Assembly (NCBI GenBank): GCA_903856085.1
Contig: CAIOAT010000038.1
Location: forward strand, 26,777-90,776
Length of the DNA stretch: 64,000 bases
Source: Candidatus Omnitrophota bacterium
Lineage (GTDB): Bacteria > Omnitrophota > Omnitrophia > Omnitrophales > Aquincolibacteriaceae
Direction of reading: 5' to 3'
Every line of letters begins with the position of its first letter. Within the stretch, counting starts at the first letter, position 1. Of the stretch, positions 25,983-47,404 are shown piece after piece. The notes below the pieces were generated by a model. That model saw only the letters and a list, made by a program, of their open reading frames with translations. It was not told where the DNA came from and searched no databases. The position numbers and the translations under genes are program-made.

Positions 25983-25998
25983 GTGCCCGCTGCTGATA

Positions 25999-27516: not shown

Positions 27517-27580
27517 GGGACTCCTTGAACTCCTTGATGAAAATATGTGACAGTCCCGTATTGGCCACGCGGAACTGCGG

Positions 27581-28495: not shown

Positions 28496-28528
28496 AAAAA
28501 CTTCAACACCCTTCCCTTCAAATCATCT

Positions 28529-29695: not shown

Positions 29696-29711
29696 ACAAG
29701 ATCCTTGCGGA

Positions 29712-30857: not shown

Positions 30858-31810
30858 TGGCCGCTGTCCGTTCTCTCAAAAACTTCCTGGACATTGTAGG
30901 GTCTATCTTTGGTATTGGCGTAATAACTCTTGGAAAGCATATCCGCGATCAATCCTAGGACAAAAAGCAGCACGCCGGTCAGAACGAGAAAGGCAGACAG
31001 GATCGGCCATGCGGTGTGGCCTATTTTCCCCAATAAAAGATAAAGATAGAGAGCGTAAAGGAAAGTCACAAATCCGAGCGCTATGGATACCAATCCCATG
31101 CCTCCCAGAAGATGCAGCGGGCGCACCGCATATTTGTTCCAGAACCATACCGAGATCATATCGACAAACCCCTTCAGGGCTCGCCGCCAATCATACTTGG
31201 TTTTCCCGTATTTTCTCGGCCGGTGATTCACGACGATCTCTCCGACCCGGAAGCCTTTGATCTTTAAAATCGCCGGGATAAAGCGGTGCATTTCTCCATA
31301 GAGATCGATCTGTCGGAAGCATTCCTTTTTATAGACCTTAAGGGAGCAACCGCTATCATGAATGCCGTCCTGAATGAGAAACCCTTTGAGAAAATTAGCG
31401 GTCCTTGAGACGAACCGTTTAAGAAAGGGATCCATTCTTTTCTTCCGCCATCCGGAGACAACATCAAGGCCATTCTCTTGGAGATACTGGATCAATTTGG
31501 GGATATCATGCGGATCATTTTGTCCATCTCCGTCCATGGTAATCACGAGAGGATGTCGGGCTTGCTTGATCCCGGCATCGAGCGCAGCGGTCTGTCCAAA
31601 ATTACGCCGGAAACGGATCACCTTGACAGGGGCCAATGATTGGGCGACTTCGAAAGTCTTATCCGTCGAGCCATCATCCGCTAAAATAATTTCGTAGATA
31701 TAGCGGTTCTCCTCACAAACAGATTTTATCTCGCGAAAAATCTCCGGGATATTCTCTGCTTCGTTAAAAACCGGGATGACGATCGAGACAGAATCTATAG
31801 CATCTTTCAA
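30854..31810 (-). CDS. GT2 polyprenol-phosphate sugar synthase (GtrB/ArnC-like) with two C-terminal TM helices
   Basis: VSIVIPVFNEAENI..ILADDGSTDKT..MDGDGQNDPHDIP is the DXD region. The C-terminal helices are LHLLGGMGLVSIALGFVTFLYALYLYLLL and ILSAFLVLTGVLLFVLGLIADML. Confidence 0.75.
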   Translation of the reverse strand: MKDAIDSVSIVIPVFNEAENIPEIFREIKSVCEENRYIYEIILADDGSTDKTFEVAQSLAPVKVIRFRRNFGQTAALDAGIKQARHPLVITMDGDGQNDPHDIPKLIQYLQENGLDVVSGWRKKRMDPFLKRFVSRTANFLKGFLIQDGIHDSGCSLKVYKKECFRQIDLYGEMHRFIPAILKIKGFRVGEIVVNHRPRKYGKTKYDWRRALKGFVDMISVWFWNKYAVRPLHLLGGMGLVSIALGFVTFLYALYLYLLLGKIGHTAWPILSAFLVLTGVLLFVLGLIADMLSKSYYANTKDRPYNVQEVFERTDSGQ

Positions 31811-35907: not shown

Positions 35908-35936
35908 AACATCCCAACAGTGAACATTGAGGCATT

Positions 35937-37727
35937 ATGAATCTAAAATCCCTGTCCACGCGAACCTGTTTGCTCCTGATCCTGTTCTTCGGGATCGCAG
36001 CCTATTCCAACACCCTCACCAGCTCGTTCCAGTTTGACGATGTCCCGACCATCTTAGAAAATCATTCCCTTCAGCCTCTAAATTTCGGAAAACTTTGGCA
36101 TTTCCATCCCGTTCGATTCATCACAAATCTCAGCTTTGCCTTCAACCTCTATCTGGCGGGTTTCCAAACATGGAGCTTTCACATTTCCAATCTCCTCATA
36201 CATCTCTTCACTTCGATGATCGTCTTCCAACTCACACTATGGATCCTCAGAACCCCTTCCGTGGAAAATGAGATCCCATCTTCACGACAGCATCTTTTCG
36301 CTTTGATCACGGCTCTTTTATTTACAGCACATCCCTTGCAGACCGAAGCAGTGACCTATATTGTGCAACGCGCGACTTCGCTGGCAGCCCTTTTTTATTT
36401 AGCGGCGCTCTGGATGTATCTCAAGGCGCGTCTTGAAAGCCCGCGTCATTATCTTCTCGCCCTCTGTTTCACGGCAGCGGCCATGTTTACCAAGGAGATC
36501 AGTTTCACACTCCCTTTCGCCATTCTACTTTCGGAATTGTTCTTTTTTCCAATATCTGAAAAAGAACCCCTCAGTAAAAAACTCCTCTGCTGGACTCCTT
36601 TCGCAGCATTTTTGTTTATCATCCCGTTGCTTTATCTGACGAATGCTTACCTGCTTGTGGACGGAGGTGGATCCATTAACATCCTCCCAACCACTGCTAA
36701 CAACATCTCCAGGTGGGATTACCTCCTGACCCAGTTCCGCGTCATGAGAACCTATCTGCGACTTCTTGCTTTCCCGGTGAACCAATGCCTTATTTATGAT
36801 TATCGCTCTTCATCGGGCTGGGGAGATCCCGATGTATGGGCTGCGTTTTCATTACTCCTTAGCATCTTCCTCCTGAGCCTCACTTTTTTAAGAAAAAATC
36901 GGCTCATTTCCTTTGGTATTTTATGGTTCTTTTTGACCCTCAGCGTCGAGTCGACGATTATCCCCCTTCCCGATTTTATATTCGAACACCGCCTTTACCT
37001 TCCCATGTTCGGCTTTGCTCTCTTTTTGACATCTCTTTTATGGATGATCTCAAAATCTATCAAACTTTTTACGGCCATTTCACTGTCCGTCGTTGTTGTC
37101 TTTTCAAGCATGACTTATTTCCGTAATGAGGTATGGAAAAGCAAGGTTTCGTTAGCGCTAGATACCGTGAAAAAATCACCTCTCCTGGGCATCTCTTACG
37201 CCGGGCTAGCCGATGCCTATAGCAGAGAAACGGGAGATGATAAAACCGCGGCCACCTGTTATCAAAAAGCATTGGAATTGGGCTTTGCCACTCCTTGGGT
37301 TTATGCAAACTTGGCCGCCGTTTATTCCCGCCTTGGCGAATACGAAAAAAGCCTTCATTTTCAAAAAATAATCTCGTCATCTTCGGTTTTAAAAAAGAAC
37401 CTTTCCTTTTATGACAATCATGCCCTTGCTCTGATGAATGCCGGCAAGAACTCAGAAGCCATCGAGATGCTTAAGGATGACATGCGAATGAGTCCTGAGA
37501 ATCCTTTGCTATACATCCAGCTTGGAGAAGCTTATCGCCGAATACAACGAGGGGATGATGCCGTTTTTTCTTTCCGAAAAGCGATTGAGTTGGCACCGCT
37601 ATCCAAGGAAGGGTATCAGTCTCTCGCTCTATTCTATGAATCAAAAGGAGATAAACAAAAAGCTGTGGCTGTGTTGGTGGAATACTTGAAGTGCAAAAAG
37701 AAACACACACCTTTGTTTGGCGATTAA
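35937..37727 (+). CDS. TMTC-like GT-C membrane glycosyltransferase with C-terminal TPR repeats (paralog B, tandem duplicate of A)
   Basis: The first ~390 aa are about 90% identical to paralog A, including the 20 nt upstream (cagtgaacattgaggcattATG). The TPR region is diverged. The conserved tail is ..GDKQKAVAVLVEYLKCKKKHTPLFGD. Confidence 0.75.
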   Translation: MNLKSLSTRTCLLLILFFGIAAYSNTLTSSFQFDDVPTILENHSLQPLNFGKLWHFHPVRFITNLSFAFNLYLAGFQTWSFHISNLLIHLFTSMIVFQLTLWILRTPSVENEIPSSRQHLFALITALLFTAHPLQTEAVTYIVQRATSLAALFYLAALWMYLKARLESPRHYLLALCFTAAAMFTKEISFTLPFAILLSELFFFPISEKEPLSKKLLCWTPFAAFLFIIPLLYLTNAYLLVDGGGSINILPTTANNISRWDYLLTQFRVMRTYLRLLAFPVNQCLIYDYRSSSGWGDPDVWAAFSLLLSIFLLSLTFLRKNRLISFGILWFFLTLSVESTIIPLPDFIFEHRLYLPMFGFALFLTSLLWMISKSIKLFTAISLSVVVVFSSMTYFRNEVWKSKVSLALDTVKKSPLLGISYAGLADAYSRETGDDKTAATCYQKALELGFATPWVYANLAAVYSRLGEYEKSLHFQKIISSSSVLKKNLSFYDNHALALMNAGKNSEAIEMLKDDMRMSPENPLLYIQLGEAYRRIQRGDDAVFSFRKAIELAPLSKEGYQSLALFYESKGDKQKAVAVLVEYLKCKKKHTPLFGD

Positions 37728-38084
37728 GGCACAACGATTCCATCCCCTAGGAACCAGACAAGCAACGCTCTGATTTGGAATCGGAATTCATTTCTTCTTT
37801 ATTATATTGCCTCGTTATTGGAACGCTCCTTACTCACACCCCGACTCTTCTCAAACGTAATCCGTTTTTGAAACCCTCGGCTCAGCTTATGCTTATGGGT
37901 TTATATTCGGCCCGATTTTGGATTGTGCCCAGAAAAGTCTCCAGACAGACAACTCGAGATGCGGAAAAAAGAAAGATTTTTGAGCGCCTTGAAATGTATT
38001 ACAATTCCTAGAGAGGTCCATCTGGTTTTTTCAAAGAACTCCAGGAAGCCTTGCATAGCACAGATAACCAACTGGGGAGAACCA

Positions 38085-39503
38085 GTGCCGAAAGTTTTTT
38101 TTGCCACACCGCCTATCAGCATGGAAGAACGCTACGGTTCGCTAGCCGGGGCCGGAAGTTGCCTTCCCTCGCTTGGCATTCTTTTTCTTGCCGCGATAAC
38201 CCGAAAAGAAGGCTTCCCAACCGCGTTGGCCGATGCCTCGGCGCTCAGTCTCACAGGGAAGGAGTTACTGCAACGTGTTGAGTCTGAGCAACCCGATGTT
38301 CTCGGACTTTCAGCCACGACCTTTTCCATTTTTCATGCCGCCAAATTTGCGGCCCTGGTAAAAGAACGGTTCCCCGCCATGACCATCATCATCGGAGGCC
38401 CCCACGTTTCAGCAGCACCTCATGAAACGATGGAACGCTTTCCTGTTTTTGAAGTTGCGGTTCTGGGAGAAGGCGAGGAAACGATCATCGACCTTCTGGA
38501 GACTATGGATACCCATGCCCCCTTGGCGAATATACCGGGAACCATCCTGCGTAGCGACGGAAAATTGGTAACGACCCAACGCCGAGAGTTTCTAAAGAAT
38601 CTCGATTCACTGCCCTATCCAGCTTGGGATCTATTGGAAGGATTTCCAGAGCGTTATCGACCCGCTCCCTTCAAAGTACGCCGGTTCCCGGCCGCCTCAC
38701 TTGTAACCTCGCGTGGTTGTCCCAACCAATGCATTTTCTGCGACCGATCCGTATTTGGAACAAGTTGTCATGCCTTTTCGGCCGAGTATGTGACAGGGAT
38801 GATTCGTCATCTTGTCGAGCACTTCGGGATCCGGGAATTCAGTTTTGAGGACGACACCTTCATTACTTTTAAAAAACGTCTTGTGGCCATTTGTCAGGGC
38901 ATTATCGACCTTGGAATTGATATTTCCTGGACCTGCCTGGGACGGGTGAACGGTGTAGACAAAGAGACCCTGGAGTTGATGCGGCGGGCTGGTTGCTGGC
39001 AGATCAGTTTCGGTATCGAGAGCGGTTGCCAGGAGATCCTTACCACCATTCACAAGAACATCACCCTTGAACAGATTCAAAATGCCGTGGCCCTTTGCCG
39101 GAATGCAGGAATTCTCAGCAAAGGCTTTTTTATCGTCGGCCATCCGGGAGAAACACGGGAGACTCTGTCACGAACTATGGACTTTGCCTTAAAGCTTCCC
39201 CTCGATGATATCAGTGTTACCATGCTGACCCCTTTCCCCGGCACCGAGATATACGAACGGGCTGCGGAATTCGGAAAGTTTGACAGTGACTGGTCCAAGA
39301 TGAATCTGCTCAATGTCGTATTCATCCCACATGGACTCACCCGTGAGGATTTGGAAGAGTACCAGCACAAGATATTACGAAAGTTTTATTTGCGTCCGAG
39401 GATTATCTTGGGTTACCTTCGACGCCTTATTGCAAATCCTTCTATGTCAAAAGGGATACTGCTTGGAGCAAAGGCGTTTTTCCGCAGCGTCAATAAAAAA
39501 TAG
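38085..39503 (+). CDS. B12-binding domain-containing radical SAM enzyme
   Basis: A GTG start at 38085 is proposed (GGGGAGA Shine-Dalgarno, then VPKVFFATPPI...). The ORF-track ATG at 37923 adds an unlikely 54-aa extension. The cluster motif is CPNQCIFCDRSVFG. Confidence 0.7.
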   Translation: MPKVFFATPPISMEERYGSLAGAGSCLPSLGILFLAAITRKEGFPTALADASALSLTGKELLQRVESEQPDVLGLSATTFSIFHAAKFAALVKERFPAMTIIIGGPHVSAAPHETMERFPVFEVAVLGEGEETIIDLLETMDTHAPLANIPGTILRSDGKLVTTQRREFLKNLDSLPYPAWDLLEGFPERYRPAPFKVRRFPAASLVTSRGCPNQCIFCDRSVFGTSCHAFSAEYVTGMIRHLVEHFGIREFSFEDDTFITFKKRLVAICQGIIDLGIDISWTCLGRVNGVDKETLELMRRAGCWQISFGIESGCQEILTTIHKNITLEQIQNAVALCRNAGILSKGFFIVGHPGETRETLSRTMDFALKLPLDDISVTMLTPFPGTEIYERAAEFGKFDSDWSKMNLLNVVFIPHGLTREDLEEYQHKILRKFYLRPRIILGYLRRLIANPSMSKGILLGAKAFFRSVNKK

Positions 39504-39536
39504 CAATTCATAAATAGCGATGAGGAGGTTACCCGT

Positions 39537-40919
39537 ATGCATTTTGTCTTTGTTCAACCGCCCATAGGTAAGAGAGTAGTCAGTATAATACCCGCTTTAA
39601 GCATCCCTTACCTTGCTGCTATTGTGGAAGGAAAGCAAATTCAGGTATCGGTGGTTGCATCTGACGCTGAAGGTTTAAGCGTAGAAGAAACAGCGGAGAG
39701 AGTGATTGAGTTACGTCCGGATGTTGTCGGATTTTCAATTGGAACACTCGCTGCTCTTAATTCATACGAAATCGCCGGGCTGGTGAAAAAGAAAATTAGC
39801 GATGTGATAACTATTGCCGGGGGACATCATGCTACGATATTCCCGGAGGAGGTATTAACCAGCGGGATTGATTTTGTCGCAATTGGAGAGGGGGAAAAAA
39901 CGATTGGTGAATTTTCTGACTACCTCTTGAAAAATAAAAAGCTAGAAGAGGTTCGCGGAATTGCATATCGTCAGGGAGAGAGGATTAAATACAATGACAC
40001 CCAAACAGTCATTAAAAACTTGGACGATTTACCGCTGCCAGCATGGCATTTAATGCCAATCGACAAGTACAAAAGTGTCTTTCAAAAGACGCTGCGAAAC
40101 TTACCTATTGTGACATCACGTGGGTGTCACGGACAATGCATTTTTTGTTACAAAGGACTATTTGGAGATACGTTCCGAATGAGGTCGCCCAAAAACATTG
40201 TTAGTGAAATAAGATACTTGAAGGATAATTTCGGCATAAGTTCGTTCGATTTCATTGATGATCATTTCGCGACTATTCCTAAACGAGCAATAGAAATATG
40301 CGCATTGATAAAAAAGGAGGGGATCAATTTAGCCTGGGGACTCCCATCAGGGATACGCGTTGATGTGGTTACTGAGGAATTGTTAAACGCATTGAAAGAA
40401 GCGGGGTGCTATCGTATTGGATTTGGCGTTGAATCAGGAAATGACCGAGTGTTAAAAAACATCAAGAAAAATACTACGAAAGATCAAATTCGCAAAGCCG
40501 TACAATTGGCGCGAAGTATGAATTTTACAGTATATTGTTTTTTTATTATTGGCAATCTCGGCGAAACAGAGCGGTCGATTAATGACACCATTGAATTTGC
40601 TAGGGAACTTGACCCCGATATTGCACAATTCTCAGTAGCGGTGCCATATCCTGGGACTGAGATGTTTCGGATGTTAAAACAACAGGACAGAATTATCAGT
40701 TTTGATTGGAACGATTACGATTATTTTTCATCCGGTCGTCAAATTTTTAAACATGAGCATCTTGATTATCATGTCATCCAAAAAAAATACGCTGAAGCAT
40801 ACAGAAGTTTCTATTTAAGGCCAACGTACATCATAAAACAATTAAAGGCTTTAAAAAATTTAAACGAGATGAAGAAATTAATACAATCGTTTTTCCGATT
40901 ATTCGGTCTATTAAAATAA
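39537..40919 (+). CDS. B12-binding domain-containing radical SAM enzyme, AT-rich composition
   Basis: MHFVFVQPPIGK.., cluster motif CHGQCIFCYKGLFG. Composition and codon usage are visibly AT-richer than the flanking genes. Confidence 0.8.
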   Translation: MHFVFVQPPIGKRVVSIIPALSIPYLAAIVEGKQIQVSVVASDAEGLSVEETAERVIELRPDVVGFSIGTLAALNSYEIAGLVKKKISDVITIAGGHHATIFPEEVLTSGIDFVAIGEGEKTIGEFSDYLLKNKKLEEVRGIAYRQGERIKYNDTQTVIKNLDDLPLPAWHLMPIDKYKSVFQKTLRNLPIVTSRGCHGQCIFCYKGLFGDTFRMRSPKNIVSEIRYLKDNFGISSFDFIDDHFATIPKRAIEICALIKKEGINLAWGLPSGIRVDVVTEELLNALKEAGCYRIGFGVESGNDRVLKNIKKNTTKDQIRKAVQLARSMNFTVYCFFIIGNLGETERSINDTIEFARELDPDIAQFSVAVPYPGTEMFRMLKQQDRIISFDWNDYDYFSSGRQIFKHEHLDYHVIQKKYAEAYRSFYLRPTYIIKQLKALKNLNEMKKLIQSFFRLFGLLK

Positions 40920-41105
40920 TGCGTTGCAATGTTGTACTATTCTACGAGACGTCGATACATAGACATTTTTAAAGAAGTTTGTATAGCGCAAGAAGTCGGT
41001 AAAACGTCTTCTTTCGGCCCATAAAAGCATCGTTGCTGGACTTGAGCGTAAAGTTTTAGCGTACACAATGGATTAAATTATAATTAGCTCTATGAATCAC
41101 ATAAC

Positions 41106-42122
41106 ATGAAAACTTCGATTATCATCGTAAACTGGAATGGTAAAGAGTTTCTCCCTGAGTGCTTGGACAGTCTGCACACTCAGACGTATGACGACTTTGA
41201 AACCATCGTGGTCGACAATGGTTCGCGTGACGGCTCCGTGGAGCTGCTCCGTGGATCCTACCCTTGGGTCCGTCTGGTTCAACTGGATTCAAATACCGGG
41301 TTCGCAAGCGGCAACAATGCGGGGCTCTCTGCCGCTCGAGGCAGTAGGTACATTGTGACCCTCAACAACGACACCCGTGTGGATCGTCACTGGCTGGCCG
41401 AACTGACTGCAGCCGCCGAGAGTTCCCCTCAGATGGGAATGGTCGCTAGCCGCATCTGCGACTGGGACAACCCGGACCAGATCGACTCCCTTGGAATTGC
41501 CATTTGCCGCGACGGTATGTCCCGTGGCAGCAAACGGCATGCTTGTTTTTCTGCGCTTTCAATTGCCAAAAACGAGGCTATCCTCCTGCCCAGTGCCTGC
41601 GCCGCTTTGTACCGAAGAGAAATGATTAATGAAATTGGTTTTTTCGACGATGATTTCTTTGCTTATTGCGAGGATATTGATCTGGGACTGAGGGGCCGAC
41701 TGGCGGGCTGGCAGGCGGTGCTTGCACGCGACGCCATCGTGTATCATCGCTACTCACGCAGCGGCGGAGTATTTTCTCCCATGAAGCTGTACCTGGTAGA
41801 ACGAAATCATTTCTGGGTTGCGCTGAAATGTTTTCCGATTAATATGCTACTCACTCTGCCGTTCTGGACCATGATTCGCTATCTGGTGCAGGCACGACTG
41901 GTGTTGGAGGCAAGAGGCGCAGGAGCCCAGTTTCGCAACGCATCATCGGGCGATTTGATCAAGGCTGTCCTGCGGGGAATCATGGATGTAGCACGCGGAC
42001 TGCCGTCCCTCCTCCGCAAACGCCATGCAACACTAACGAAACAACGCCTTTCACCCAAAGAGATGCGTCAGCTTTTAAAAAAATATAAACTTACGTTCAG
42101 GGAGCTCCTCGATGCCGGTTGA
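41106..42122 (+). CDS. Glycosyltransferase family 2 (GT-A)
   Basis: SIIIVNWNGKEFLPECLDSL..TIVVDNGSRDGS..DDDFFAYCEDIDL is the DXD region. Confidence 0.8.
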   Translation: MKTSIIIVNWNGKEFLPECLDSLHTQTYDDFETIVVDNGSRDGSVELLRGSYPWVRLVQLDSNTGFASGNNAGLSAARGSRYIVTLNNDTRVDRHWLAELTAAAESSPQMGMVASRICDWDNPDQIDSLGIAICRDGMSRGSKRHACFSALSIAKNEAILLPSACAALYRREMINEIGFFDDDFFAYCEDIDLGLRGRLAGWQAVLARDAIVYHRYSRSGGVFSPMKLYLVERNHFWVALKCFPINMLLTLPFWTMIRYLVQARLVLEARGAGAQFRNASSGDLIKAVLRGIMDVARGLPSLLRKRHATLTKQRLSPKEMRQLLKKYKLTFRELLDAG

Positions 42123-42744
42123 CACGGGTTTGAACAAGGAAGGAATGATCTTTCAGCGGGATCAATACGCCAAGGGGGGCCTTGGAGTACGCTACTGGGA
42201 CTATCGCGATCGCAGCGCGCTTCAGCATGTCATCGGCAACGATATCCTGGATGCCGGTTGCGGCGAAGGGATTACCCTGGAAAAACTGGTGAAACTCTTC
42301 CCCAAGGCCCATGTGGTCGGCATTGATACTGAACCGGAAAATCTTGAGATCTGCCGCAAACATGGTTTACCCGCACAAGAGGGATCACTCTATGCTCTCC
42401 CTTTTGCCGATGCATCGTTTGATACGGTTCTCTTCTCCGAGGTAATCGAACACCTGGATACGCCGGAGAAGGCTCTGTCTGAAATTTTCCGGGTGCTACG
42501 CCCCGGCGGAAGGGTCATCATCATTTTCCCAAATGACCGCACTTTCTTGCTGGCACGTCTGGCAATAGGCATGATTCGCGAGGCATTCTATAATCCCGGG
42601 CATGTCCGGCAGTGGACGCCCCGTCAGATCCGTAAATCACTAAACGCCATTGGGTTTGTGCCGATTGCCGGAAGCAGCATTCCTTTTTTATTTTGGTCCA
42701 TAAGCTTACATCATATTGCGGTGGCCGAAAAAACCCATGATTAA
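42112..42744 (+). CDS. Class I SAM-dependent methyltransferase (Methyltransf_11-like)
   Basis: Motif I is ILDAGCGEGITL. Motif II is FDTVLFSEVIEHL. Motif III is LRPGGRVII. Confidence 0.75.
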   Translation: MPVDTGLNKEGMIFQRDQYAKGGLGVRYWDYRDRSALQHVIGNDILDAGCGEGITLEKLVKLFPKAHVVGIDTEPENLEICRKHGLPAQEGSLYALPFADASFDTVLFSEVIEHLDTPEKALSEIFRVLRPGGRVIIIFPNDRTFLLARLAIGMIREAFYNPGHVRQWTPRQIRKSLNAIGFVPIAGSSIPFLFWSISLHHIAVAEKTHD

Positions 42745-44110
42745 GTTTCTCTGGATCAATGCTATAGATTCCGCTTCGGAGGTTGAAACCCGATATCCTC
42801 ATTTGGGGATTGGCTACCTGGTTGCGTCACTCAAGAGATCCTTCGGAGATGATGCCTTTCTTTTCCAGGTTGTCAGTTCTGATATCGAAACGGCTCTAGA
42901 CAAATTCCAGCCTGACATCGTAGGGATTTCTGCTGTAAGTCAGAACTACGGACGTGCCATCCTCTATGCGGCCGAGGCACGACGACGGGAAATCCCAGTC
43001 CTTGTCGGCGGAGTTCACATCTCGTTTCTGCCCGAAACGCTTTCTCCCGATATGACAGTAGGCTGCATGGGTGAGAGCGAAGAAACTATCATCGAACTAA
43101 TGCGAATTTATCGTGAAACGCAATGTTTTGAACCAAAAAAACTGGCCTCCGTTGCGGGTATTATCTACCATGCTGAGGATGGCAGCCTCGTTACCACAAA
43201 ATCTCGCCCCCCAAAAATGGATCTCGATTCTCTCGCTATCCCGGACCGGAGTCTTTTCAAAGAATCATCGCATACGTATCTTTTTACTTCCCGGGGATGT
43301 CCGTACCGCTGCTCTTTTTGCGCATCTTCCCGCTTTTGGGATACGGTAAGATTTTTTTCCGCCGAACGGGTTATCCATGAGATCGAGGAACTCATGAAAA
43401 ACTCGGGCGTTACTTTTATCAGCTTTTTTGATGATCTTTTTGTTGCAGACAAAAAGCGTTTTCACAGGATCGTCGAGCTACTTGAACAGAAAAAGATTAT
43501 TGGAAAGGTCAAATTCTCCTGTTCTCTTCGGACCAATACCATCACAGAAGATGTCGTGGCCGGTTTAAAGCGCATGGGCATTGTGTCCGTCGGCATGGGG
43601 CTTGAATCGGGAAATCAAAGGGTGCTAACCTGGTTGAAGGGTGCCGGAATTACAGTAGAACATAACCGGCGCGCAGTGACATTGCTCCGGGCAAACGGGA
43701 TCATGGCAAACGCATCGTTTGTCATCGGCACTCCGGATGAAACGAAAAAGGAAATCCTGGATACTCTGCATTTTATAAAATCAGTTGGCTTGGGTCTTTT
43801 TGATGTCTATGTCCTGACGCCCTTTCCAGGAACCCCAGTATGGGAATCAGCAAAAAGCCGGGGGCTTGTCTCCGAGGGACCGGAAATGGACTGGAGCCGC
43901 TTGAATGTCAATTTTGAGGTTTCTCCTGACAAAGCCATTATCCTTTCGGAAGTCCTATCCCGCGATGAGATCGTGGAACTTTACGAAAAGTTTCGCCGGT
44001 ACCGTTTTCTTCACAATGTCGCCACGATCTGGCGGCATCCGATGCTCACGGACCTGCCCCGCTATGCCTTTAAATTGTTACGCGAAAAAATCCTGAGGGC
44101 CATACGATGA
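42737..44110 (+). CDS. B12-binding domain-containing radical SAM enzyme
   Basis: The start is reassigned to the ATG at 42737 (MIKFLWINAID..), which overlaps the methyltransferase stop by 8 nt. The cluster motif is CPYRCSFCASSRFWD. Confidence 0.8.
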   Translation: MIKFLWINAIDSASEVETRYPHLGIGYLVASLKRSFGDDAFLFQVVSSDIETALDKFQPDIVGISAVSQNYGRAILYAAEARRREIPVLVGGVHISFLPETLSPDMTVGCMGESEETIIELMRIYRETQCFEPKKLASVAGIIYHAEDGSLVTTKSRPPKMDLDSLAIPDRSLFKESSHTYLFTSRGCPYRCSFCASSRFWDTVRFFSAERVIHEIEELMKNSGVTFISFFDDLFVADKKRFHRIVELLEQKKIIGKVKFSCSLRTNTITEDVVAGLKRMGIVSVGMGLESGNQRVLTWLKGAGITVEHNRRAVTLLRANGIMANASFVIGTPDETKKEILDTLHFIKSVGLGLFDVYVLTPFPGTPVWESAKSRGLVSEGPEMDWSRLNVNFEVSPDKAIILSEVLSRDEIVELYEKFRRYRFLHNVATIWRHPMLTDLPRYAFKLLREKILRAIR

Positions 44111-44829
44111 ACAGCACAAACAACACGCGCTCCCTTGTACTGGTTCCGGCCTATAATGAGGCCGCGCGAATAGGCAGTGTTGTTGAAGGCATCAAGCATA
44201 TCGTCCCTGGAATGCCTGTGCTGGTGATCAATGATGGTTCCAAAGATGCCACTTCAAGCGTCGCCCGCACGTCCGGTGCGATCGTCATAACCCACCCCTT
44301 TAATATGGGATACGGTGTTGCCATCCAGACTGGATACAAGTACGCTCTTGCCAATAACTATGACTACCTTATCCAGCTAGATGCCGACGGCCAGCACGAT
44401 CCGTCCTGCATCCCGGCTTTGTTGGCTCCGGTGGTCAAAGGAGAGGTCGACGTTGCTATCGGCTCGCGTTTTCTTGGGAACAGCTATCGACCGCCTTTTG
44501 CGCGCAGGATGGGTATGGCACTCTTCCGCAGGATCGTATTTCTGGTAACGGGCAAATTCGTCACGGATACGACCTCGGGGTATCAAGCATTTAATCGCAA
44601 CGTGATACGTTTTTTTTCTACGGATATCTTTCCGGTCGATTATCCGGACGCCGACATGTTGATCACGCTTCACCGGGCAGGCTTTCGCATGACCGAAGTA
44701 CCGGTTCGCATGTTTGAAAACAGCGAGGGAAAGTCAATGCACGGCGGGTTTAAGCCGATCTATTATATGTTCAAGATGTTGCTGTCCATTAGTGTGACAT
44801 TCATGAGAGATAAGAGAAAAAACCAGTAA
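44107..44829 (+). CDS. GT2 polyprenol-monophosphate sugar synthase-like (DPM1/Ppm1-like, soluble)
   Basis: LVLVPAYNEAARI..VINDGSKDAT..QLDADGQHDP is the DXD motif. It has no TM helices. It overlaps the upstream gene by 4 nt. Confidence 0.75.
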   Translation: MNSTNNTRSLVLVPAYNEAARIGSVVEGIKHIVPGMPVLVINDGSKDATSSVARTSGAIVITHPFNMGYGVAIQTGYKYALANNYDYLIQLDADGQHDPSCIPALLAPVVKGEVDVAIGSRFLGNSYRPPFARRMGMALFRRIVFLVTGKFVTDTTSGYQAFNRNVIRFFSTDIFPVDYPDADMLITLHRAGFRMTEVPVRMFENSEGKSMHGGFKPIYYMFKMLLSISVTFMRDKRKNQ

Positions 44830-44880
44830 GACCCCCTGCGTTTGCGCCGCGGTGCAACCCTAGGGAGAAATGAGGAAACC

Positions 44881-45270
44881 ATGCTTGCAAGCCAAAGAAT
44901 CTTCGCTCTATTCATTTGCTGTTTTGTCTTTGCCTACACCCTGAATCTAGTGAGAAGGCGTAAACTTCGTGAAGAGTATTCCGTTCTCTGGCTTGCGACC
45001 AGCCTGTTGATGTTTATTCTTGTGATACGCTATGAATGGCTCGTAGCCCTCACAAGTTTGATCGGTGCGGGTTTACCGACCACCACTTTGTTCATCTGCT
45101 CGATCATCTTTCTTATGCTTGTAGCGGTTCAAATTTCCATCAAGATATCACACCTGACGGACCAGGTTAAAAATCTGGCCCAAGAAAATGCCCTACTTCG
45201 AACTAAAATGGATGCAACGTCAGCGGGCATGGGACACGGAGAAGTGAAAAACAAGCCTGTCTCTTTTTGA
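44881..45270 (+). CDS. DUF2304-like small membrane protein (usual partner of DPM1-like GT2)
   Basis: Two TM helices (IFALFICCFVFAYTLNLV, LVALTSLIGAGLPTTTLFICSIIFLMLVAV) precede a C-terminal amphipathic helix. The start at 44881 has a GAGGAAACC Shine-Dalgarno. Confidence 0.5.
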   Translation: MLASQRIFALFICCFVFAYTLNLVRRRKLREEYSVLWLATSLLMFILVIRYEWLVALTSLIGAGLPTTTLFICSIIFLMLVAVQISIKISHLTDQVKNLAQENALLRTKMDATSAGMGHGEVKNKPVSF

Positions 45271-45304
45271 TAAAAATAACATGCCCCGCGAAGGTTGAAG
45301 CCCC

Positions 45305-47404
45305 ATGAATCCAAGACCGCTATCCACGCGAACTTTTTTTCTCTTGATCCTGTTCTTCGGGATCGCGGCCTATTCCAATACCCTGCACGCCCCCTTCTAT
45401 TTTGATGACTATCCAAGCATACTTAACAATTCAAGCATTCTGAATCCTTGGGACTGGATCGGCCTACTGGACAAAGCCCCCACACGCTTTCTTGTTTTTT
45501 TTAGTTTTGCGATCAACTACAAAATAGGCGGGGCTTCTCCTTTTGGATACCATGTCGTCAATTTGATCATCCATCTTCTAAACGGCATTTTAGTCTTCGG
45601 AATAGCCCTGCTCTTATCGACACCCCATGAGCTCCAGGGGAAAACCCTCCCCCCTGCACAAAAAAATCTTATTGCCTTCGCCTCGGCGATTATTTTTGTC
45701 TGTCATCCCGTCCAAACCCAAGCTGTCACCTATATCGTCCAGCGAATGACCTCGATGGCTTCTTTTTTCTATCTAGCGACAATCTTACTCTATCTTCATT
45801 TTCGGATCAGCAAAGTGCGGGCATTTTACCTTTTAGGATTATTCACAGCTCTTCTCAGCATGCTCTCTAAAGAAATCGCGTTTACTCTCCCCGTAACCTT
45901 ATTGCTCTGCGAAATCTTGTTTTTCAATCAAAACGCAAAATCGATTCCGTCCCTTGTAAAACGCCTCCTCCCCTTCGTCCTCGTTTCTCTTTTGATTCCG
46001 GGAATGTATTTTTTGAATCATGAGCAACTCGTTCGACATGGCGGACAAATGGGCCTCGTGCCCACGGGCGCAAAGAATCTTTCCCGCAGCATGTATTTCA
46101 TCACCCAACTGGATGTTATCCGGACCTACCTTAGGCTTCTTGTTTTTCCGATCCGTCAAACCTTTGACTATGACTTCCCGCTTTCGACCGGATTCTTCAG
46201 CCCCGCAACCTTCGGTTCTTTTATGCTTCTTGTGGCCATTCTTGCTACCGGTTATCGCCTGATCCGGAAGCAACCGCTCGCAGTTTTCGGGATCTTATTT
46301 TTTTTCCTAACTTTGAGCATTGAGTCGACCATCATCCCCCTCCCCGACCTAATCTTTGAACACCGGCTTTATCTCCCCATGGCAGGTTTTGCTTTTTTAA
46401 CAGCTTCATTCCTCGCCAAATTCTTAAAATCGCCCCGTCTTTTTACAATCATCTCGATCGCCCTCGCACTCATCTTAGGAACGCTCACCTATCAGCGCAA
46501 TACCGTATGGACAAACGAGATCGTTTTTTGGAAAGACCAGATCAAAAAAGCTCCCTTTAAAGGCCGCGGTTATTTTCAGCTCGGCATGGCCTACAACAAA
46601 ATTCATCAATACCCGTTAGCGGCTGATAGTTTTTTAGAGGCGCTGCGCTGGACGCCGGAGGACAAGAAAAATGATATTGAGTTTAATAATGTGGGCGCGG
46701 CCTATGATCATTCAGGGCAAACCACAAAAGCGGAACATTGGTTTCGCAAGGGGCTAGAATCACATCCGAAGTCTGGAACCCTTCACACGAATTTGGCCGT
46801 CTTGGAAGCAAGAAAAGGGAATTCTGAGGATGCTATCTTATTGTTAAAAAAATCGATCGCGTTAGAGCCCGGAACTGCGATTGCGTATTATGAACTTGCC
46901 CATATTTATTCACTGAGAAATGAATACTCGAAAGCCATCCCGTTGCTCGAAAAAGCTATCGATTTAGACCCCTTCTTGAGCCCCGCGCATGAGCTTCTCG
47001 AAAGAATGTATGAACAGCAAGCAAACCAAGCAAAGAACCTTTCAACTCGTCAAGCCTCAGAAGGCAACTCCCCGAAAGACACTATTTCCCGAGATCGAAT
47101 TACCGGTTCAAAAAAAGAAAGTGCCACGCCGAGTGCCATCGTTGCGCTAGAAGAAGCCCTCCGGATCAGTCCTGCGGATCCGTCATTGCATGTTCAGCTT
47201 GGAGAACTTTATCGGAAATCGGGACAGGAAGACTCCGCGGTTAAATCGTTTCAAAAAGCCATCAAAGTCGCACCGCTGCGCAAAGAAGGCTATGAAGCCT
47301 TGGCCCTTTTTTATAATGGGCAAGGGGACAAACAAAAAGCCCTGGCTGTCCTGATGGAATACCTGAAGTTAAAAAAGAAACACGGCTCGTTATCGCGAAA
47401 TTGA
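45305..47404 (+). CDS. TMTC-like GT-C membrane glycosyltransferase with an extended C-terminal TPR array (paralog C)
   Basis: PFYFDDYPSILNNSSILNP. About 11 TM helices are followed by at least 8 TPRs. The conserved tail is ..GDKQKALAVLMEYLKLKKKHGSLSRN. Confidence 0.75.
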   Translation: MNPRPLSTRTFFLLILFFGIAAYSNTLHAPFYFDDYPSILNNSSILNPWDWIGLLDKAPTRFLVFFSFAINYKIGGASPFGYHVVNLIIHLLNGILVFGIALLLSTPHELQGKTLPPAQKNLIAFASAIIFVCHPVQTQAVTYIVQRMTSMASFFYLATILLYLHFRISKVRAFYLLGLFTALLSMLSKEIAFTLPVTLLLCEILFFNQNAKSIPSLVKRLLPFVLVSLLIPGMYFLNHEQLVRHGGQMGLVPTGAKNLSRSMYFITQLDVIRTYLRLLVFPIRQTFDYDFPLSTGFFSPATFGSFMLLVAILATGYRLIRKQPLAVFGILFFFLTLSIESTIIPLPDLIFEHRLYLPMAGFAFLTASFLAKFLKSPRLFTIISIALALILGTLTYQRNTVWTNEIVFWKDQIKKAPFKGRGYFQLGMAYNKIHQYPLAADSFLEALRWTPEDKKNDIEFNNVGAAYDHSGQTTKAEHWFRKGLESHPKSGTLHTNLAVLEARKGNSEDAILLLKKSIALEPGTAIAYYELAHIYSLRNEYSKAIPLLEKAIDLDPFLSPAHELLERMYEQQANQAKNLSTRQASEGNSPKDTISRDRITGSKKESATPSAIVALEEALRISPADPSLHVQLGELYRKSGQEDSAVKSFQKAIKVAPLRKEGYEALALFYNGQGDKQKALAVLMEYLKLKKKHGSLSRN

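What the first reader, a model, noticed from the sequence alone, without database searches (positions are those of the whole stretch)
44107..47404. Minimal module: DPM1-like GT2, DUF2304 membrane partner and a TMTC-like transferase in one operon
A soluble DPM1/Ppm1-like GT2 (44107-44829, DXD motif QLDADGQHDP) overlaps the upstream gene by 4 nt. It is followed 52 nt later by a two-TM DUF2304-type protein, then 35 nt later by TMTC paralog C.

This arrangement places the donor synthase, its membrane anchor and the transferase together. It is the bacterial counterpart of Dpm1 plus PMT/TMTC, and it is the most compact testable unit in the island.
Basis: inference. Interest (0 to 1): 0.55.

Follow-up and report, generated by a model that had tools for sequence, protein, structure and literature searches.

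The report
Lipid-sugar synthase pair beside TMTC-like transferase
Three adjacent genes in an uncultured Omnitrophota bacterium most likely load a sugar onto a membrane lipid (an enzyme plus a small helper protein) and then transfer it outside the cytoplasm, using a bacterial relative of the animal TMTC protein-glycosylating enzymes; the first two genes are a known pair, and their link to a TMTC-type enzyme appears undescribed.

Summary
It comprises a 240-aa GT2 (44107-44829), a 129-aa DUF2304 protein (44881-45270) and a 699-aa membrane-plus-TPR protein (45305-47404). All lie on the + strand, with a 4-nt overlap upstream and gaps of 51 and 34 nt.

The GT2 is closest to polyprenyl-phosphate sugar synthases (PpgS, archaeal DPMS, ArnC). 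GT2 plus DUF2304 is the experimentally known GacI/GacJ (PpgS/Rv3632) pair. There, the small protein is a three-helix activator, not an anchor.

The 699-aa protein is a true TMTC-superfamily GT-C (hhalign against animal TMTC N-domains: probability 100%, E 2e-38). It keeps the DD, KE..T and E.R.Y motifs. It lacks the mannose-contacting SHKSY motif and gives no Pfam DUF1736 hit.

- **GT2 with DUF2304:** in 64 related genome loci the GT2 sits directly upstream of DUF2304 in 53 of 59.
- **TMTC-like after DUF2304:** a TMTC-like gene follows directly in 18 of 59.
- **Reverse association:** only 2-3 of 80 TMTC-like loci carry the pair.

The trio is the tail of a 10-gene operon with four TMTC paralogs in the window. 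No flippase is recognisable. I read it as a new variant of the known four-component glycosylation system. The donor-to-transferase coupling, the sugar and the acceptor are all inferred.

The parts
44107..44829 (+). GT2 glycosyltransferase, 240 aa. PpgS/GacI-type polyprenyl-phosphate sugar synthase candidate, with DAD at residues 92-94 and no predicted TM segment.
   Evidence: PF00535 at 4.8e-23. Best NCBIfam match is PpgS NF058614 at 107.7 bits (cut-off 370), followed by AglJ and dolichyl-P hexose transferase. Best PDB matches are Pyrococcus DPMS 5mlz at 1.5e-11 and ArnC, sharing DADxQH, IGSR and D..SG motifs. No hydrophobic segment found.
44881..45270 (+). DUF2304 protein, 129 aa. GacJ/Rv3632-type small membrane activator candidate: three hydrophobic segments followed by a conserved C-terminal amphipathic helix.
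   Evidence: PF10066 at 2.6e-25. Hydrophobic segments at 6-24, 38-56 and 65-83. 55 invariant positions among 20 homologues. A GT2 lies directly upstream in 53 of 59 loci.
45305..46534 (+). N-terminal polytopic catalytic domain (residues 1-410) of TMTC-like GT-C paralog C. Motif residues: D34-D35, H134-P135, R147, K189-E190...T194, D288-Y289, E352-H-R354-L-Y356.
   Evidence: hhalign against animal TMTC N-domains: probability 99.95-100%, E 2.3e-38, 374 columns. BLASTP 24-31% identity, up to 83 bits. AF2 model pLDDT 82.8, pTM 0.88. Top 20 Foldseek PDB hits are all GT-C enzymes: AglB, ArnT, PglB, EmbB, STT3. Invariant residues.
46535..47404 (+). C-terminal TPR domain of paralog C. Two TPR blocks (about residues 405-586 and 608-692) joined by a low-confidence linker (589-605). 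Predicted to be periplasmic.
   Evidence: Multiple TPR Pfam families, e.g. TPR_1 at 3.9e-27. AF2 full-length model pLDDT 89.1. TPR structures dominate the Foldseek and PDB hits. Topology is inferred from 11 helices and the TMTC model.
42716..44110 (+). B12-binding radical SAM protein whose stop overlaps the GT2 start by 4 nt (start called at 42737 on metagenome contigs). Probably co-translated with the trio.
   Evidence: PF04055 and PF02310. NCBIfam gives only sub-threshold hits, to BchE, PhpK and HpnJ. A B12-rSAM lies directly upstream of the GT2 in 6 of 54 loci and within 6 kb in 16 of 54.
34105..37727 (+). TMTC-like paralogs A (34105-35907) and B (35937-37727) at the head of the same + strand cluster.
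   Evidence: TPR Pfam hits. N-domains are 88% identical to each other and 47% identical to C. Weak PMT_2 hit for B at 1.2e-4.
37923..42744 (+). Middle of the cluster: two B12-radical SAM proteins, a second GT2 (41106-42122, 338 aa) and a SAM methyltransferase (42112-42744).
   Evidence: Pfam and NCBIfam. Gene calls on contig L001.
47390..48994 (-). Convergent 534-aa polytopic protein (DUF6798, weak EpsG) overlapping the GT-C stop by 15 nt. It is an alternative user of the lipid-linked sugar, or a polymerase-like protein.
   Evidence: PF20604 at 3.6e-9, EpsG at 0.0018. 11 hydrophobic segments. No PDB sequence match.
22740..31810 (-). Second glycosylation module: ArnC/GtrB-like GT2 with two C-terminal TM segments (30854-31810), ArnB-like aminotransferase, GT4, methyltransferase, B12-rSAM, TMTC-like paralog D (23736-26048) and an NAD-dependent epimerase.
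   Evidence: Pfam. NCBIfam: ArnC at 6.9e-46, ArnB at 2.8e-60. TM segments. D is 28% identical to C.

Best explanation
The three genes encode the core of a periplasmic glycosylation pathway of the GacI/GacJ/GacL type.

1. **Donor synthesis.** The 240-aa GT2 sits on the cytoplasmic face of the inner membrane. It transfers a sugar from a nucleotide sugar to polyprenyl (undecaprenyl) phosphate. The sugar is probably a HexNAc.
2. **Activation.** The three-helix DUF2304 protein binds the GT2 and raises its efficiency for the lipid acceptor, as GacJ does for GacI and Rv3632 does for PpgS.
3. **Flipping.** The lipid-linked sugar is flipped by a flippase encoded elsewhere.
4. **Transfer.** A TMTC-family GT-C uses it as donor. 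The enzyme has 11 helices, a DD catalytic motif in the first periplasmic loop, and Lys/Glu and Glu/Arg/Tyr phosphate- and metal-binding motifs. Its periplasmic TPR domain selects the acceptor, most plausibly a protein, as in animal TMTCs.

The same donor probably also serves the paralogous TMTC-like enzymes A and B at the head of the operon.

**Shown here:** the family assignment of each protein, the fold, the motif conservation and the gene-order conservation.
**Inferred:** the enzymatic activities, the coupling of donor to this transferase, the sugar identity, the acceptor and the topology.
For: **GT2.**
- All top curated and structural relatives are polyprenyl-phosphate glycosyltransferases: PpgS, AglJ, Dol-P hexose transferase, Pyrococcus DPMS and ArnC.
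- It shares the DADxQH, IGSR and D..SG motifs with them.

**DUF2304.**
- It scores above the Pfam threshold.
- Family members GacJ and Rv3632 are experimentally shown to complex with and stimulate the adjacent GT2. The downstream step there is a GT-C enzyme.
- The GT2-DUF2304 adjacency holds in 53 of 59 loci.

**GT-C.**
- Profile-profile match to animal TMTCs gives E 2.3e-38 over 374 columns.
- Foldseek returns only GT-C enzymes at the top, with ArnT 5f15 at TMq 0.51.
- Invariant D34, K189, E352, R354 and Y356 correspond to TMTC motifs M1, M4 and M7.

**Linkage.**
- The genes share a strand, with a 4-nt overlap and 51- and 34-nt gaps.
- A TMTC-like gene lies directly after DUF2304 in 18 of 59 loci, and within 6 kb in 19 of 42, across several phyla.
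- In an Omnitrophota relative, six tandem TMTC-like genes abut a GT2-DUF2304 pair.

**HexNAc.**
- PpgS is the best curated match.
- Characterised DUF2304-partnered synthases make GlcNAc- or GalNAc-P-lipid.
- The mannose-contacting TMTC motif SHKSY is replaced here by (D/x)xxPTR.
Against: - Nothing here was assayed.
- No flippase (GtrA, Wzx or EamA-like) is recognisable in the island or the window. Some related loci do carry one: Wzx in L018, GtrA in L038, and weak EamA-like hits in L014 and L026.
- In about two thirds of loci DUF2304 is not followed by a TMTC-like gene. Other polytopic proteins or nothing take that place.
- Only 2-3 of 80 TMTC-like loci have the pair nearby.
- The GT-Cs found after DUF2304 are not a distinct clade. 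Within-group identity is 0.382 against 0.371 for random sets, and 17% of 2000 random sets of GT-Cs drawn from DUF2304-containing loci reached the observed value.
- The GT2 is far below the PpgS equivalog cut-off (107.7 against 370 bits), so the sugar is unknown.
- The operon also carries a second GT2, methyltransferases and three B12-radical SAM enzymes. These suggest a more elaborate product than a single sugar.
Confidence: 0.6

Rival explanations
1. Wps-like primer model. The GT2-DUF2304 pair makes polyprenyl-P-HexNAc as a primer, not as a single-sugar donor. The primer is elongated and modified in the cytoplasm by the other operon enzymes (the 338-aa GT2, the SAM methyltransferase and the B12-radical SAM enzymes). 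The product is then flipped, and a TMTC-like GT-C transfers it en bloc onto its acceptor.
For: - In L. lactis the GacI/GacJ homologues WpsA/WpsB initiate an oligosaccharide on C55-P-GlcNAc. Other GTs extend it, and a GT-C then transfers it.
- The trio is the tail of a same-strand cluster containing a second GT2, a methyltransferase and three B12-rSAM genes, one overlapping the GT2 start by 4 nt.
- B12-rSAM genes lie within 6 kb of the pair in 16 of 54 loci.
- Homologues of the 338-aa GT2 co-occur in several loci, and follow DUF2304 directly in L055 and L056.
Against: - No Wzx-type flippase or polymerase was identified in the window.
- The rSAM and methyltransferase genes have no assignable substrate; all NCBIfam hits are far below cut-off.
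- Many loci with the GT2-DUF2304-GT-C order lack these extra genes, for example L023, L025, L036 and L040.
Confidence: 0.2
2. Neighbourhood without direct coupling. The GT2-DUF2304 pair supplies a donor to a different enzyme, such as the convergent DUF6798/EpsG-like polytopic protein or an unlinked GT-C. TMTC-like paralog C draws on another lipid-linked sugar, for example the product of the ArnC-like GT2 at 30854-31810. The genes are neighbours only because envelope-glycan genes cluster.
For: - About 77 of 80 TMTC-like loci lack the pair, so TMTC-like enzymes generally obtain donors from unlinked genes.
- In roughly two thirds of loci DUF2304 is followed by something else.
- The GT-Cs after DUF2304 are not a dedicated clade.
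- A second Pren-P GT2 and a polytopic DUF6798 protein are present in the window. Homologues of that second GT2 sit next to the pair in L006, L008, L011, L033-35 and L037.
Against: - Direct same-strand adjacency in 18 of 59 loci from several phyla is far above chance.
- Intergenic gaps are short, 34 nt in the window.
- Every characterised GT2-DUF2304 pair feeds a GT-C enzyme encoded in the same cluster.
Confidence: 0.15
3. One reading: a Dpm1-type polyprenol-phosphate-mannose synthase anchored by DUF2304, feeding a true protein O-mannosyltransferase. This would be bacterial Dpm1 plus TMTC/PMT.
For: - The GT2 catalytic domain is homologous to Pyrococcus Dol-P-Man synthase (1.5e-11).
- The GT-C is homologous to animal TMTC O-mannosyltransferases.
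- IMG labels several homologues 'protein O-mannosyl-transferase'. These are automatic names.
Against: - The best curated match is PpgS, a GalNAc enzyme, not a mannose synthase.
- Characterised DUF2304 partners are HexNAc-P-lipid synthases, and DUF2304 acts there as an activator rather than an anchor.
- The TMTC motif M2 (SHKSYRP), modelled as the mannose contact, is not conserved. Only the Arg is kept.
- There is no Pfam DUF1736 hit.
Confidence: 0.05

Closest known systems
GacI / GacJ / GacK / GacL four-component glycosylation system of Streptococcus pyogenes (also EpaI/EpaJ of E. faecalis and WpsA/WpsB...WpsJ of L. lactis)
   Same: - A ~230-240-aa GT2 without TM helices is followed immediately by a ~110-130-aa three-helix DUF2304 protein.
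- A polytopic GT-C transferase is encoded in the same cluster.
- The lipid-monophosphate sugar logic is the same.
   Different: - The host is an Omnitrophota bacterium, and its relatives are Desulfuromonadales. It is not a Gram-positive coccus.
- The GT-C is of the TMTC type and has a large TPR domain. GacL and WpsJ are not described as having one.
- No Wzx or GtrA flippase is present in the locus.
- The acceptor is unknown; no rhamnan genes are present.
- The cluster includes B12-radical SAM enzymes.
PpgS (Rv3631) / Rv3632 / Rv3779 of Mycobacterium tuberculosis (polyprenyl-P-GalNAc synthase, its DUF2304 stimulator, and a GT-C that decorates arabinogalactan)
   Same: - PpgS is the best NCBIfam match of the window GT2 (5.5e-31).
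- A co-transcribed DUF2304 partner stimulates the synthase.
- That the downstream user there is the GT-C Rv3779 is my own knowledge of Skovierova et al. 2010, not re-read here.
   Different: - The score is far below the equivalog cut-off (107.7 against 370 bits), so it is not an orthologue.
- In M. tuberculosis the GT-C gene is not adjacent to the pair and is not TPR-bearing, to my knowledge.
Animal TMTC1-4 (CAZy GT105), ER O-mannosyltransferases of cadherins using Dol-P-Man
   Same: - Both have an N-terminal 11-helix GT-C domain followed by a TPR domain on the non-cytoplasmic side.
- Homology runs over the full catalytic domain (hhalign E 2.3e-38).
- Shared elements are the DD, HP..T..V....R, KE...T, D-aromatic and E..LY.P..GF motifs, with the same spacings as human TMTC3.
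   Different: - The SHKSY part of motif M2 is absent.
- The Arg of M7 is shifted by one position.
- EL5 is shorter.
- There is no Pfam DUF1736 hit.
- The donor synthase is encoded next door and is of the GacI/PpgS type with a DUF2304 partner, rather than DPM1-3.
- The sugar and acceptor are unknown.
Gtr-type / ArnC-ArnT three-component periplasmic glycosylation (GT2 with C-terminal TM helices, small flippase, GT-C)
   Same: The overall logic is the same: a Pren-P sugar is made inside and used outside by a GT-C. ArnC is a detectable homologue of the GT2, and ArnT is the best compact structural match of the GT-C domain.
   Different: - The window GT2 lacks the two C-terminal TM helices of GtrB and ArnC and has DUF2304 instead.
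- A separate, genuinely ArnC-like GT2 (318 aa, 2 TM) lies elsewhere in the window at 30854-31810.

Membership tests
GacI/PpgS-type polyprenyl-phosphate HexNAc synthase (GT2, GT-A fold) | GT2 catalytic domain with DXD motif | tested here: met
   PF00535 at 4.8e-23. D92-A-D94 lies within QLDADGQHDP and aligns to the DADLQH of Pyrococcus DPMS.
GacI/PpgS-type polyprenyl-phosphate HexNAc synthase (GT2, GT-A fold) | Closest relatives are polyprenyl-phosphate (not sugar-acceptor) glycosyltransferases | tested here: met
   The NCBIfam top three are PpgS, AglJ and Dol-P hexose transferase. The PDB top matches are DPMS 5mlz and ArnC.
GacI/PpgS-type polyprenyl-phosphate HexNAc synthase (GT2, GT-A fold) | Reaches the curated equivalog score for PpgS | tested here: not met
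   107.7 bits against a cut-off of 370. It is a relative, not an orthologue, so sugar specificity is not fixed.
GacI/PpgS-type polyprenyl-phosphate HexNAc synthase (GT2, GT-A fold) | No C-terminal TM helices; DUF2304 gene immediately downstream | tested here: met
   No hydrophobic segment found. DUF2304 lies 51 nt downstream. The adjacency holds in 53 of 59 loci.
GacI/PpgS-type polyprenyl-phosphate HexNAc synthase (GT2, GT-A fold) | Forms Und-P-HexNAc from UDP-HexNAc | not testable with these tools
   Needs a membrane enzyme assay.
DUF2304 / GacJ / Rv3632 activator | Matches Pfam PF10066 above the gathering score | tested here: met
   89.2 bits against 25.5, covering 2-104 of 106 model positions.
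DUF2304 / GacJ / Rv3632 activator | Small (~110-130 aa) protein with three transmembrane helices | tested here: met
   129 aa, with hydrophobic segments at 6-24, 38-56 and 65-83. GacJ is described as 113 aa with three TM helices.
DUF2304 / GacJ / Rv3632 activator | Forms a complex with the GT2 and lowers its Km for Und-P | not testable with these tools
   No multimer prediction or assay was available. No GT2-DUF2304 fusion was found among the 64 loci. Fusions are reported in the literature.
TMTC family (GT105, GT-C/PMT clan) | N-terminal polytopic domain followed by C-terminal TPR repeats | tested here: met
   About 11 membrane helices are followed by TPRs from residue ~405.
TMTC family (GT105, GT-C/PMT clan) | Sequence homology to animal TMTC N-domains over the full length | tested here: met
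   hhalign probability 99.95-100%, E 2.3e-38, 374 columns. BLASTP up to 83 bits. The same profile against ArnT alone gives probability 0.3%.
TMTC family (GT105, GT-C/PMT clan) | GT-C fold | tested here: met
   The top 20 Foldseek hits are AglB, ArnT, PglB, EmbB/C, STT3 and Pmt, at probability 1.00 and TMq 0.39-0.51. E-values are modest (5e-4 to 0.06).
TMTC family (GT105, GT-C/PMT clan) | Motifs M1 (DD in EL1) and M4 (KE(T/Q)xxT in EL3) | tested here: met
   D34 is invariant and D35 is at least 90% conserved. K189 is invariant; E190 aligns to the conserved Glu of the TMTC KE motif, and T194 is at least 90% conserved. The spacing matches TMTC3 K188/E189/T193.
TMTC family (GT105, GT-C/PMT clan) | Motifs M2 (SHKSYRP), M3 (RxD), M5 (DW), M6 (PxxP) and M7 (ERxxY) | tested here: inconclusive
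   - M2: only the Arg is kept (PTRF, R61).
- M3: R147 is invariant, but Asp is replaced by Thr or Ser.
- M5: D288-Y289, an aromatic conservative change.
- M6: not identifiable.
- M7: E352 and Y356 are in register, with the Arg shifted by one (EHRLY).

Based.
TMTC family (GT105, GT-C/PMT clan) | Pfam DUF1736 (PF08409) hit in the TM7-TM8 loop | tested here: not met
   No Pfam family was reported for the N-domain even at E<=10. None of 120 listed homologues carries PF08409. The loop still aligns to the TMTC loop in hhalign.
TMTC family (GT105, GT-C/PMT clan) | Protein O-mannosyltransferase activity with a polyprenol-P-mannose donor | not testable with these tools
   Needs biochemistry or glycoproteomics.
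Four-component periplasmic glycosylation system (GT-A + activator + flippase + GT-C) | Dedicated flippase (Wzx or GtrA family) in the locus | tested here: not met
   No such Pfam hit among the window ORFs scanned. No small multi-TM ORF is present in the island other than DUF2304. Related loci have Wzx (L018), GtrA (L038) or weak EamA-like 4-TM proteins.
Eukaryotic DPM1/DPM2/DPM3 Dol-P-Man synthase | DPM1-type catalytic subunit with DPM2/DPM3-type anchoring subunits | tested here: inconclusive
   The catalytic domain is homologous to an archaeal DPMS. The partner is DUF2304, a family with a different documented role. No DPM2 or DPM3 comparison was possible.

The most novel reading that the evidence does not exclude
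Bacterial TMTC-type enzymes may be periplasmic protein O-glycosyltransferases. On this reading, the locus reveals their donor supply: a GacI/GacJ-type polyprenyl-P-HexNAc synthase complex. Tandemly expanding TMTC paralogs with different TPR domains (4 in this window, 6 in a relative) would then form a multi-substrate protein-glycosylation system in Omnitrophota and Desulfuromonadales. That system would be a prokaryotic forerunner of the animal TMTC pathway, possibly delivering C-methylated sugars made by the linked B12-radical SAM enzymes.
Probability: 0.25. Interest if true: 0.75.

Novelty: new variant of a known kind. Interest (0 to 1): 0.45.

Why it matters
Animal TMTCs were recognised only recently as O-mannosyltransferases, and the 2021 sequence study read here describes their transferase activity as not yet demonstrated. 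Their many prokaryotic full-length homologues are noted in the literature but are uncharacterised.

This operon physically links a bacterial TMTC-type enzyme to a well-understood donor-synthase pair. That gives a concrete, clonable route to determine which sugar and which acceptors bacterial TMTC relatives use, and hence how the family's chemistry evolved.

It also extends the GacI/GacJ 'four-component' scheme beyond Gram-positive cell-wall polysaccharides. The new hosts are Omnitrophota, Desulfuromonadales, Nitrospiraceae and Chloroflexota.

The individual components are ordinary. The interest lies in the pairing and in the paralog expansion.

Tried and rejected
- **Full-length Foldseek against PDB.** The results were swamped by TPR proteins. 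I re-modelled the N-domain alone.
- **Sequence and profile search of the N-domain against PDB.** Zero hits. Pfam on the N-domains gave nothing, except a sub-threshold PMT_2 hit for paralog B.
- **PDB profile search for DUF2304, and sequence search for the DUF6798 protein.** No solved relatives.
- **Promoter and terminator scan of 33.8-49.3 kb.** Counts were at or below shuffled expectation, so it says nothing about operon structure.
- **Test for GT2-DUF2304 gene fusions in 64 loci.** None found. Apparent long ORFs were start-codon extensions.
- **Test for a dedicated clade of GT-Cs positioned after DUF2304.** Not significant: 0.382 against 0.371, with 17% of 2000 random sets of GT-Cs drawn from DUF2304-containing loci reaching the observed value.
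- **Small 4-TM ORFs next to the pair in related loci.** They were expected to be GtrA flippases. Only one is GtrA, two are weakly EamA-like, and the rest have no hit.
- **NCBIfam on the radical SAM and methyltransferase genes.** Only far-sub-threshold generic hits.
- **Ideas rejected.** I considered DUF2304 as a mere anchor (contradicted by published GacI data) and the third protein as a non-catalytic TPR scaffold (contradicted by the conserved catalytic motifs and the GT-C fold).

Full report
**1. Observation**

The three ORFs are present as described.
- The GT2 spans 44107-44829 (240 aa).
- DUF2304 is an in-frame ORF whose ATG is at 44881 and which ends at 45270 (129 aa).
- The third ORF spans 45305-47404 (699 aa). 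All three are on the + strand.

The GT2 start codon overlaps the stop of the upstream B12-binding radical SAM gene in an ATGA. QLDADGQHDP lies at residues 90-99 of the GT2.

Pfam confirms Glycos_transf_2 (4.8e-23), DUF2304 (2.6e-25, 89 bits against a gathering score of 25.5), and many TPR families in residues ~410-692 of the third protein. The first ~400 residues of that protein have no Pfam match. The identical locus is found on independent metagenome contigs with the same gene calls.

The window's PurA falls in a 90%-identity cluster with Candidatus Omnitrophota MAG proteins. The organism is therefore most probably an uncultured Omnitrophota bacterium.

**2. Context**

The trio is not isolated. 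It is the 3' end of a same-strand cluster running from 34105 to 47404:
- TMTC-like A and TMTC-like B
- two B12-radical SAM genes
- a 338-aa GT2
- a SAM methyltransferase
- a third B12-radical SAM gene
- the 240-aa GT2, DUF2304 and TMTC-like C

A convergent 534-aa polytopic DUF6798/EpsG-like gene overlaps the end of gene C by 15 nt.

Upstream lie leuCD. Beyond them, on the - strand, is a second module (22740-31810):
- an ArnC-like GT2 with two C-terminal TM segments
- an ArnB-like aminotransferase
- a GT4
- a methyltransferase
- another B12-rSAM
- a fourth TMTC-like protein (D)
- an epimerase

Housekeeping genes flank the island (dinB, proS, rseP, dxr, cdsA, uppS). The promoter and terminator scan gave no signal above shuffled expectation. 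Operon structure is therefore inferred only from strand and spacing.

**3. The GT2**

Its best curated family is PpgS, the mycobacterial polyprenyl-phospho-N-acetylgalactosaminyl synthase (5.5e-31, 107.7 bits). This is far below the 370-bit equivalog cut-off. Next come AglJ and haloarchaeal dolichyl-phosphate hexose transferase.

Its best solved relatives are Pyrococcus Dol-P-Man synthase (1.5e-11) and ArnC. The alignments share DADxQH, IGSR and D..SG. No hydrophobic segment is predicted.

It therefore belongs to the polyprenyl-phosphate glycosyltransferase branch of GT2. However, the nearest characterised relatives make HexNAc-P-lipid.

**4. DUF2304**

This is the family of GacJ and Rv3632. 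In S. pyogenes:
- GacI (GT2) makes GlcNAc-P-undecaprenol.
- GacJ, encoded immediately downstream (113 aa, three TM helices, Pfam DUF2304), co-purifies with GacI.
- GacJ lowers GacI's apparent Km for Und-P from 18.7 to 1.1 uM.
- GacI is active and membrane-bound without GacJ.
- GacK (Wzx) is the proposed flippase, and the GT-C enzyme GacL transfers GlcNAc to polyrhamnose.

The paper states that Rv3632 likewise stimulates PpgS (bioRxiv 10.1101/180810). Reviews call this a 'four-component glycosylation system'. They also describe the WpsA/WpsB variant, in which the lipid-linked GlcNAc is a primer for further cytoplasmic elongation before GT-C transfer (PMC8327497; PMC9574508).

The window protein has three hydrophobic segments (6-24, 38-56, 65-83), not two. 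By the positive-inside rule (inference), two conserved elements face the cytoplasm, where the GT2 is. They are the strongly basic loop RRRKLREEY and the conserved C-terminal helix KISxLTDQVKNLAQENALL.

The subfamily is unusually conserved, at 70-89% identity among the 120 best database hits.

**5. The 699-aa protein**

*Structure.* AlphaFold2 gives a confident model for the full length (pLDDT 89.1) and for the N-domain alone (pLDDT 82.8, pTM 0.88).

Foldseek with the full model returned only TPR proteins. With the N-domain alone, the top 20 PDB matches are all GT-C enzymes: AglB, ArnT (5f15, TMq 0.51), PglB, EmbB/C, STT3 and Pmt1/2. This is the same set that HHpred finds for human TMTCs (PMC7801869).

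*Sequence.* Sequence-only searches against PDB found nothing.

I rebuilt ten animal TMTC N-domain sequences from the published alignment.
- BLASTP of the window N-domain gave 24-31% identity and up to 83 bits.
- hhalign of a 20-sequence bacterial profile against the TMTC alignment gave probability 99.95-100% and E 2.3e-38. It aligned 374 columns, covering residues 12-400 of the window protein and 6-423 of TMTC3.
- The same profile against ArnT alone gave no match.

*Motifs.* Motif comparison with the published M1-M7:

| Motif | TMTC | Window protein | Status |
|---|---|---|---|
| M1 | DD | D34-D35 | kept |
| HP..T..V....R | H130/R143 in TMTC3 | H134...R147, same 13-residue spacing | kept |
| M4 | KE(T/Q)xxT | K189-E190...T194 | kept |
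| M5 | DW | D288-Y289, same spacing from the preceding Pro | conservative change |
| M7 | ERxxY | E352-H-R354-L-Y356, Arg displaced by one | partly kept |
| M2 | SHKSYRP | only the Arg (PTRF) | largely lost |
| M3 | RxD | Asp replaced by Thr/Ser | partly lost |
| M6 | PxxP | not identifiable | unclear |

Pfam DUF1736 does not hit.

*Conclusion.* The protein is a member of the TMTC superfamily's catalytic-domain lineage. It is a divergent one and need not be a mannosyltransferase. The TMTC paper itself notes full-length prokaryotic homologues, for example a Deltaproteobacteria protein with E 3e-47 to TMTC3. Bacterial TMTC-like proteins are therefore known to exist but are uncharacterised. Searches of the held literature found no functional study or link to GacI/GacJ.

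**6. Conservation of the arrangement**

*Genome loci.* A scan of one genome per species with a DUF2304 alignment returned 64 loci.
- A GT2_240-like gene ends within 700 nt upstream on the same strand in 53 of 59 evaluable loci. One lies within 6 kb in 58 of 59.
- A TMTC-like N-domain starts within 800 nt downstream on the same strand in 18 of 59. One lies within 6 kb on either side in 19 of 42.
- The exact GT2-DUF2304-GT-C order occurs in Desulfuromonadales/Geobacter, Desulfoarculaceae (L028), Nitrospiraceae (L040) and Chloroflexota (L051).

Variants exist:
- GT2-GTC-GTC-DUF2304-GTC (L005, L008, L011)
- GT-C upstream of the pair (L030, L033-35, L037, L053)
- an Omnitrophota relative with six tandem TMTC-like genes convergent on an rSAM-MT-amine oxidase-rSAM-GT2-DUF2304 operon (L146)

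Where no TMTC-like gene follows, the neighbours include a Wzx flippase (L018), a 1151-aa PMT_2+TPR protein (L049) and unannotated polytopic proteins.

*The reverse association is weak.* Among 80 metagenomic loci found with the TMTC-like N-domain, only L088, L138 and L145 carry DUF2304 and/or the GT2 within the flanks. 56 of the 80 have at least 1.5 kb upstream.

*Not a separate clade.* GT-Cs located after DUF2304 have mean identity 0.382, against 0.371 for random sets. 17% of 2000 random sets of GT-Cs drawn from DUF2304-containing loci reached the observed value.

*Unequal conservation.* The GT2 and DUF2304 are 73-81% and 70-85% identical between the window and Geobacter-type loci. The adjacent GT-C N-domains are only 33-39% identical.

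This fits a conserved donor-making complex serving rapidly diversifying transferases. Horizontal transfer of the pair would also explain it.

**7. Mechanism proposed**

- Cytoplasmic face: the GT2, activated by DUF2304, loads a sugar (probably HexNAc) onto undecaprenyl phosphate.
- A flippase encoded elsewhere moves it to the periplasmic face. No GtrA-, Wzx- or EamA-like gene is recognisable in the window. Some related loci have candidates.
- Periplasmic face: TMTC-like C transfers the sugar to an acceptor chosen by its TPR domain. Paralogs A and B, which are 88% identical to each other and 47% identical to C, probably do the same.

Family assignments, fold, motifs and synteny are shown here. 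Activities, coupling, sugar, acceptor and topology are inferred.

The main alternatives are:
- a Wps-like primer pathway involving the second GT2, the methyltransferase and the radical SAM enzymes
- clustering without direct donor-transferase coupling

**8. Verdict**

- the closest analogue is GacI/GacJ/GacL and PpgS/Rv3632, not Dpm1+PMT
- DUF2304 is an activator rather than an anchor
- it has three helices rather than two
- the sugar is unlikely to be fixed as mannose
- the trio is not a minimal autonomous module

This is a new variant of a known kind of system. A GacI/GacJ-type donor pair is linked to a TMTC-type, TPR-bearing GT-C in Omnitrophota and Desulfuromonadales. It is of moderate interest, mainly because it offers an experimental handle on the uncharacterised bacterial TMTC relatives.

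Noticed in passing
window 37923-39503, 39537-40919, 42716-44110 (+) and 25999-27603 (-); loci L011, L016, L020, L026, L042, L044: Four B12-binding radical SAM genes sit in the glycosylation island, one overlapping the GT2 start by 4 nt. A B12-rSAM lies directly upstream of the GT2 in 6 of 54 related loci and within 6 kb in 16 of 54. NCBIfam gives only far-sub-threshold hits to HpnJ, BchE and PhpK. Their substrate is unexplained; it could be a C-methylated sugar, the lipid or the acceptor.
   Followed up: partly
window 34105-35907 and 35937-37727 (+): TMTC-like paralogs A and B are 88% identical in their N-domains, which indicates a recent tandem duplication. C is 47% identical to them, and D (23736-26048, - strand) only 28%.
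   Followed up: yes
L146 (GCA_043821445.1, contig JBDRCT010000031.1) 4016-15833: An Omnitrophota relative has six tandem TMTC-like genes (582-641 aa) directly after leuCD. They converge on an operon of rSAM, methyltransferase, amine oxidase, rSAM, GT2 (236 aa) and DUF2304 (127 aa). That DUF2304 is too divergent to be found by tblastn with the window protein. The same contig also holds a close copy of the pair (L003).
   Followed up: partly
window 22740-31810 (-): A second, Arn-like module is present. It comprises an ArnC/GtrB-like GT2 with two C-terminal TM segments, an ArnB-like aminotransferase, a GT4, a methyltransferase, a B12-rSAM, TMTC-like D and an NAD-dependent epimerase. Homologues of this GT2 (41-42% identity) lie right next to the GT2-DUF2304 pair or its GT-C in L006, L008, L011, L033-35 and L037.
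   Followed up: partly
window 47390-48994 (-): A 534-aa protein with 11 hydrophobic segments (DUF6798, weak EpsG similarity) overlaps the stop of the TMTC-like gene by 15 nt in convergent orientation. It has no solved relative by sequence. It could be a polymerase, ligase or GT-C-like user of lipid-linked sugars.
   Followed up: partly
window ~10000-21000 (-): A type IV pilus / type II secretion-like cluster lies next to the glycosylation island. It includes a pseudopilin with an N-methylation motif, T2SS F and E proteins, a secretin and a PilM-like protein. Pilins are common targets of bacterial O-glycosylation, but no link was tested.
   Followed up: no
loci L002-L044 compared with the window: The GT2 and DUF2304 are 73-81% and 70-85% identical between this Omnitrophota window and Geobacter/Desulfuromonadales genomes. 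That is unusually high for different phyla. The adjacent GT-C N-domains are only 33-39% identical. This suggests either strong constraint on the pair or its horizontal transfer.
   Followed up: partly
window 22000-48000: The glycosylation island has lower GC (0.43-0.49, minimum 0.426 at 24-26 kb over TMTC-like D) than the flanking housekeeping regions (0.51-0.53).
   Followed up: no
L014 6771-7136, L026 5498-5869, L038 9566-9955, L018 8433-9734: Related loci carry candidate flippases next to the pair: half-size 4-TM proteins with weak EamA hits (similar in size to ArnE/F, from my own knowledge), a GtrA-family protein and a Wzx-type protein. The window has none.
   Followed up: yes
window 7695-9869 (-): A 724-aa protein combines a putative glucoamylase domain (PF10091) with a CBM9 carbohydrate-binding domain. 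It is unrelated to the finding.
   Followed up: no
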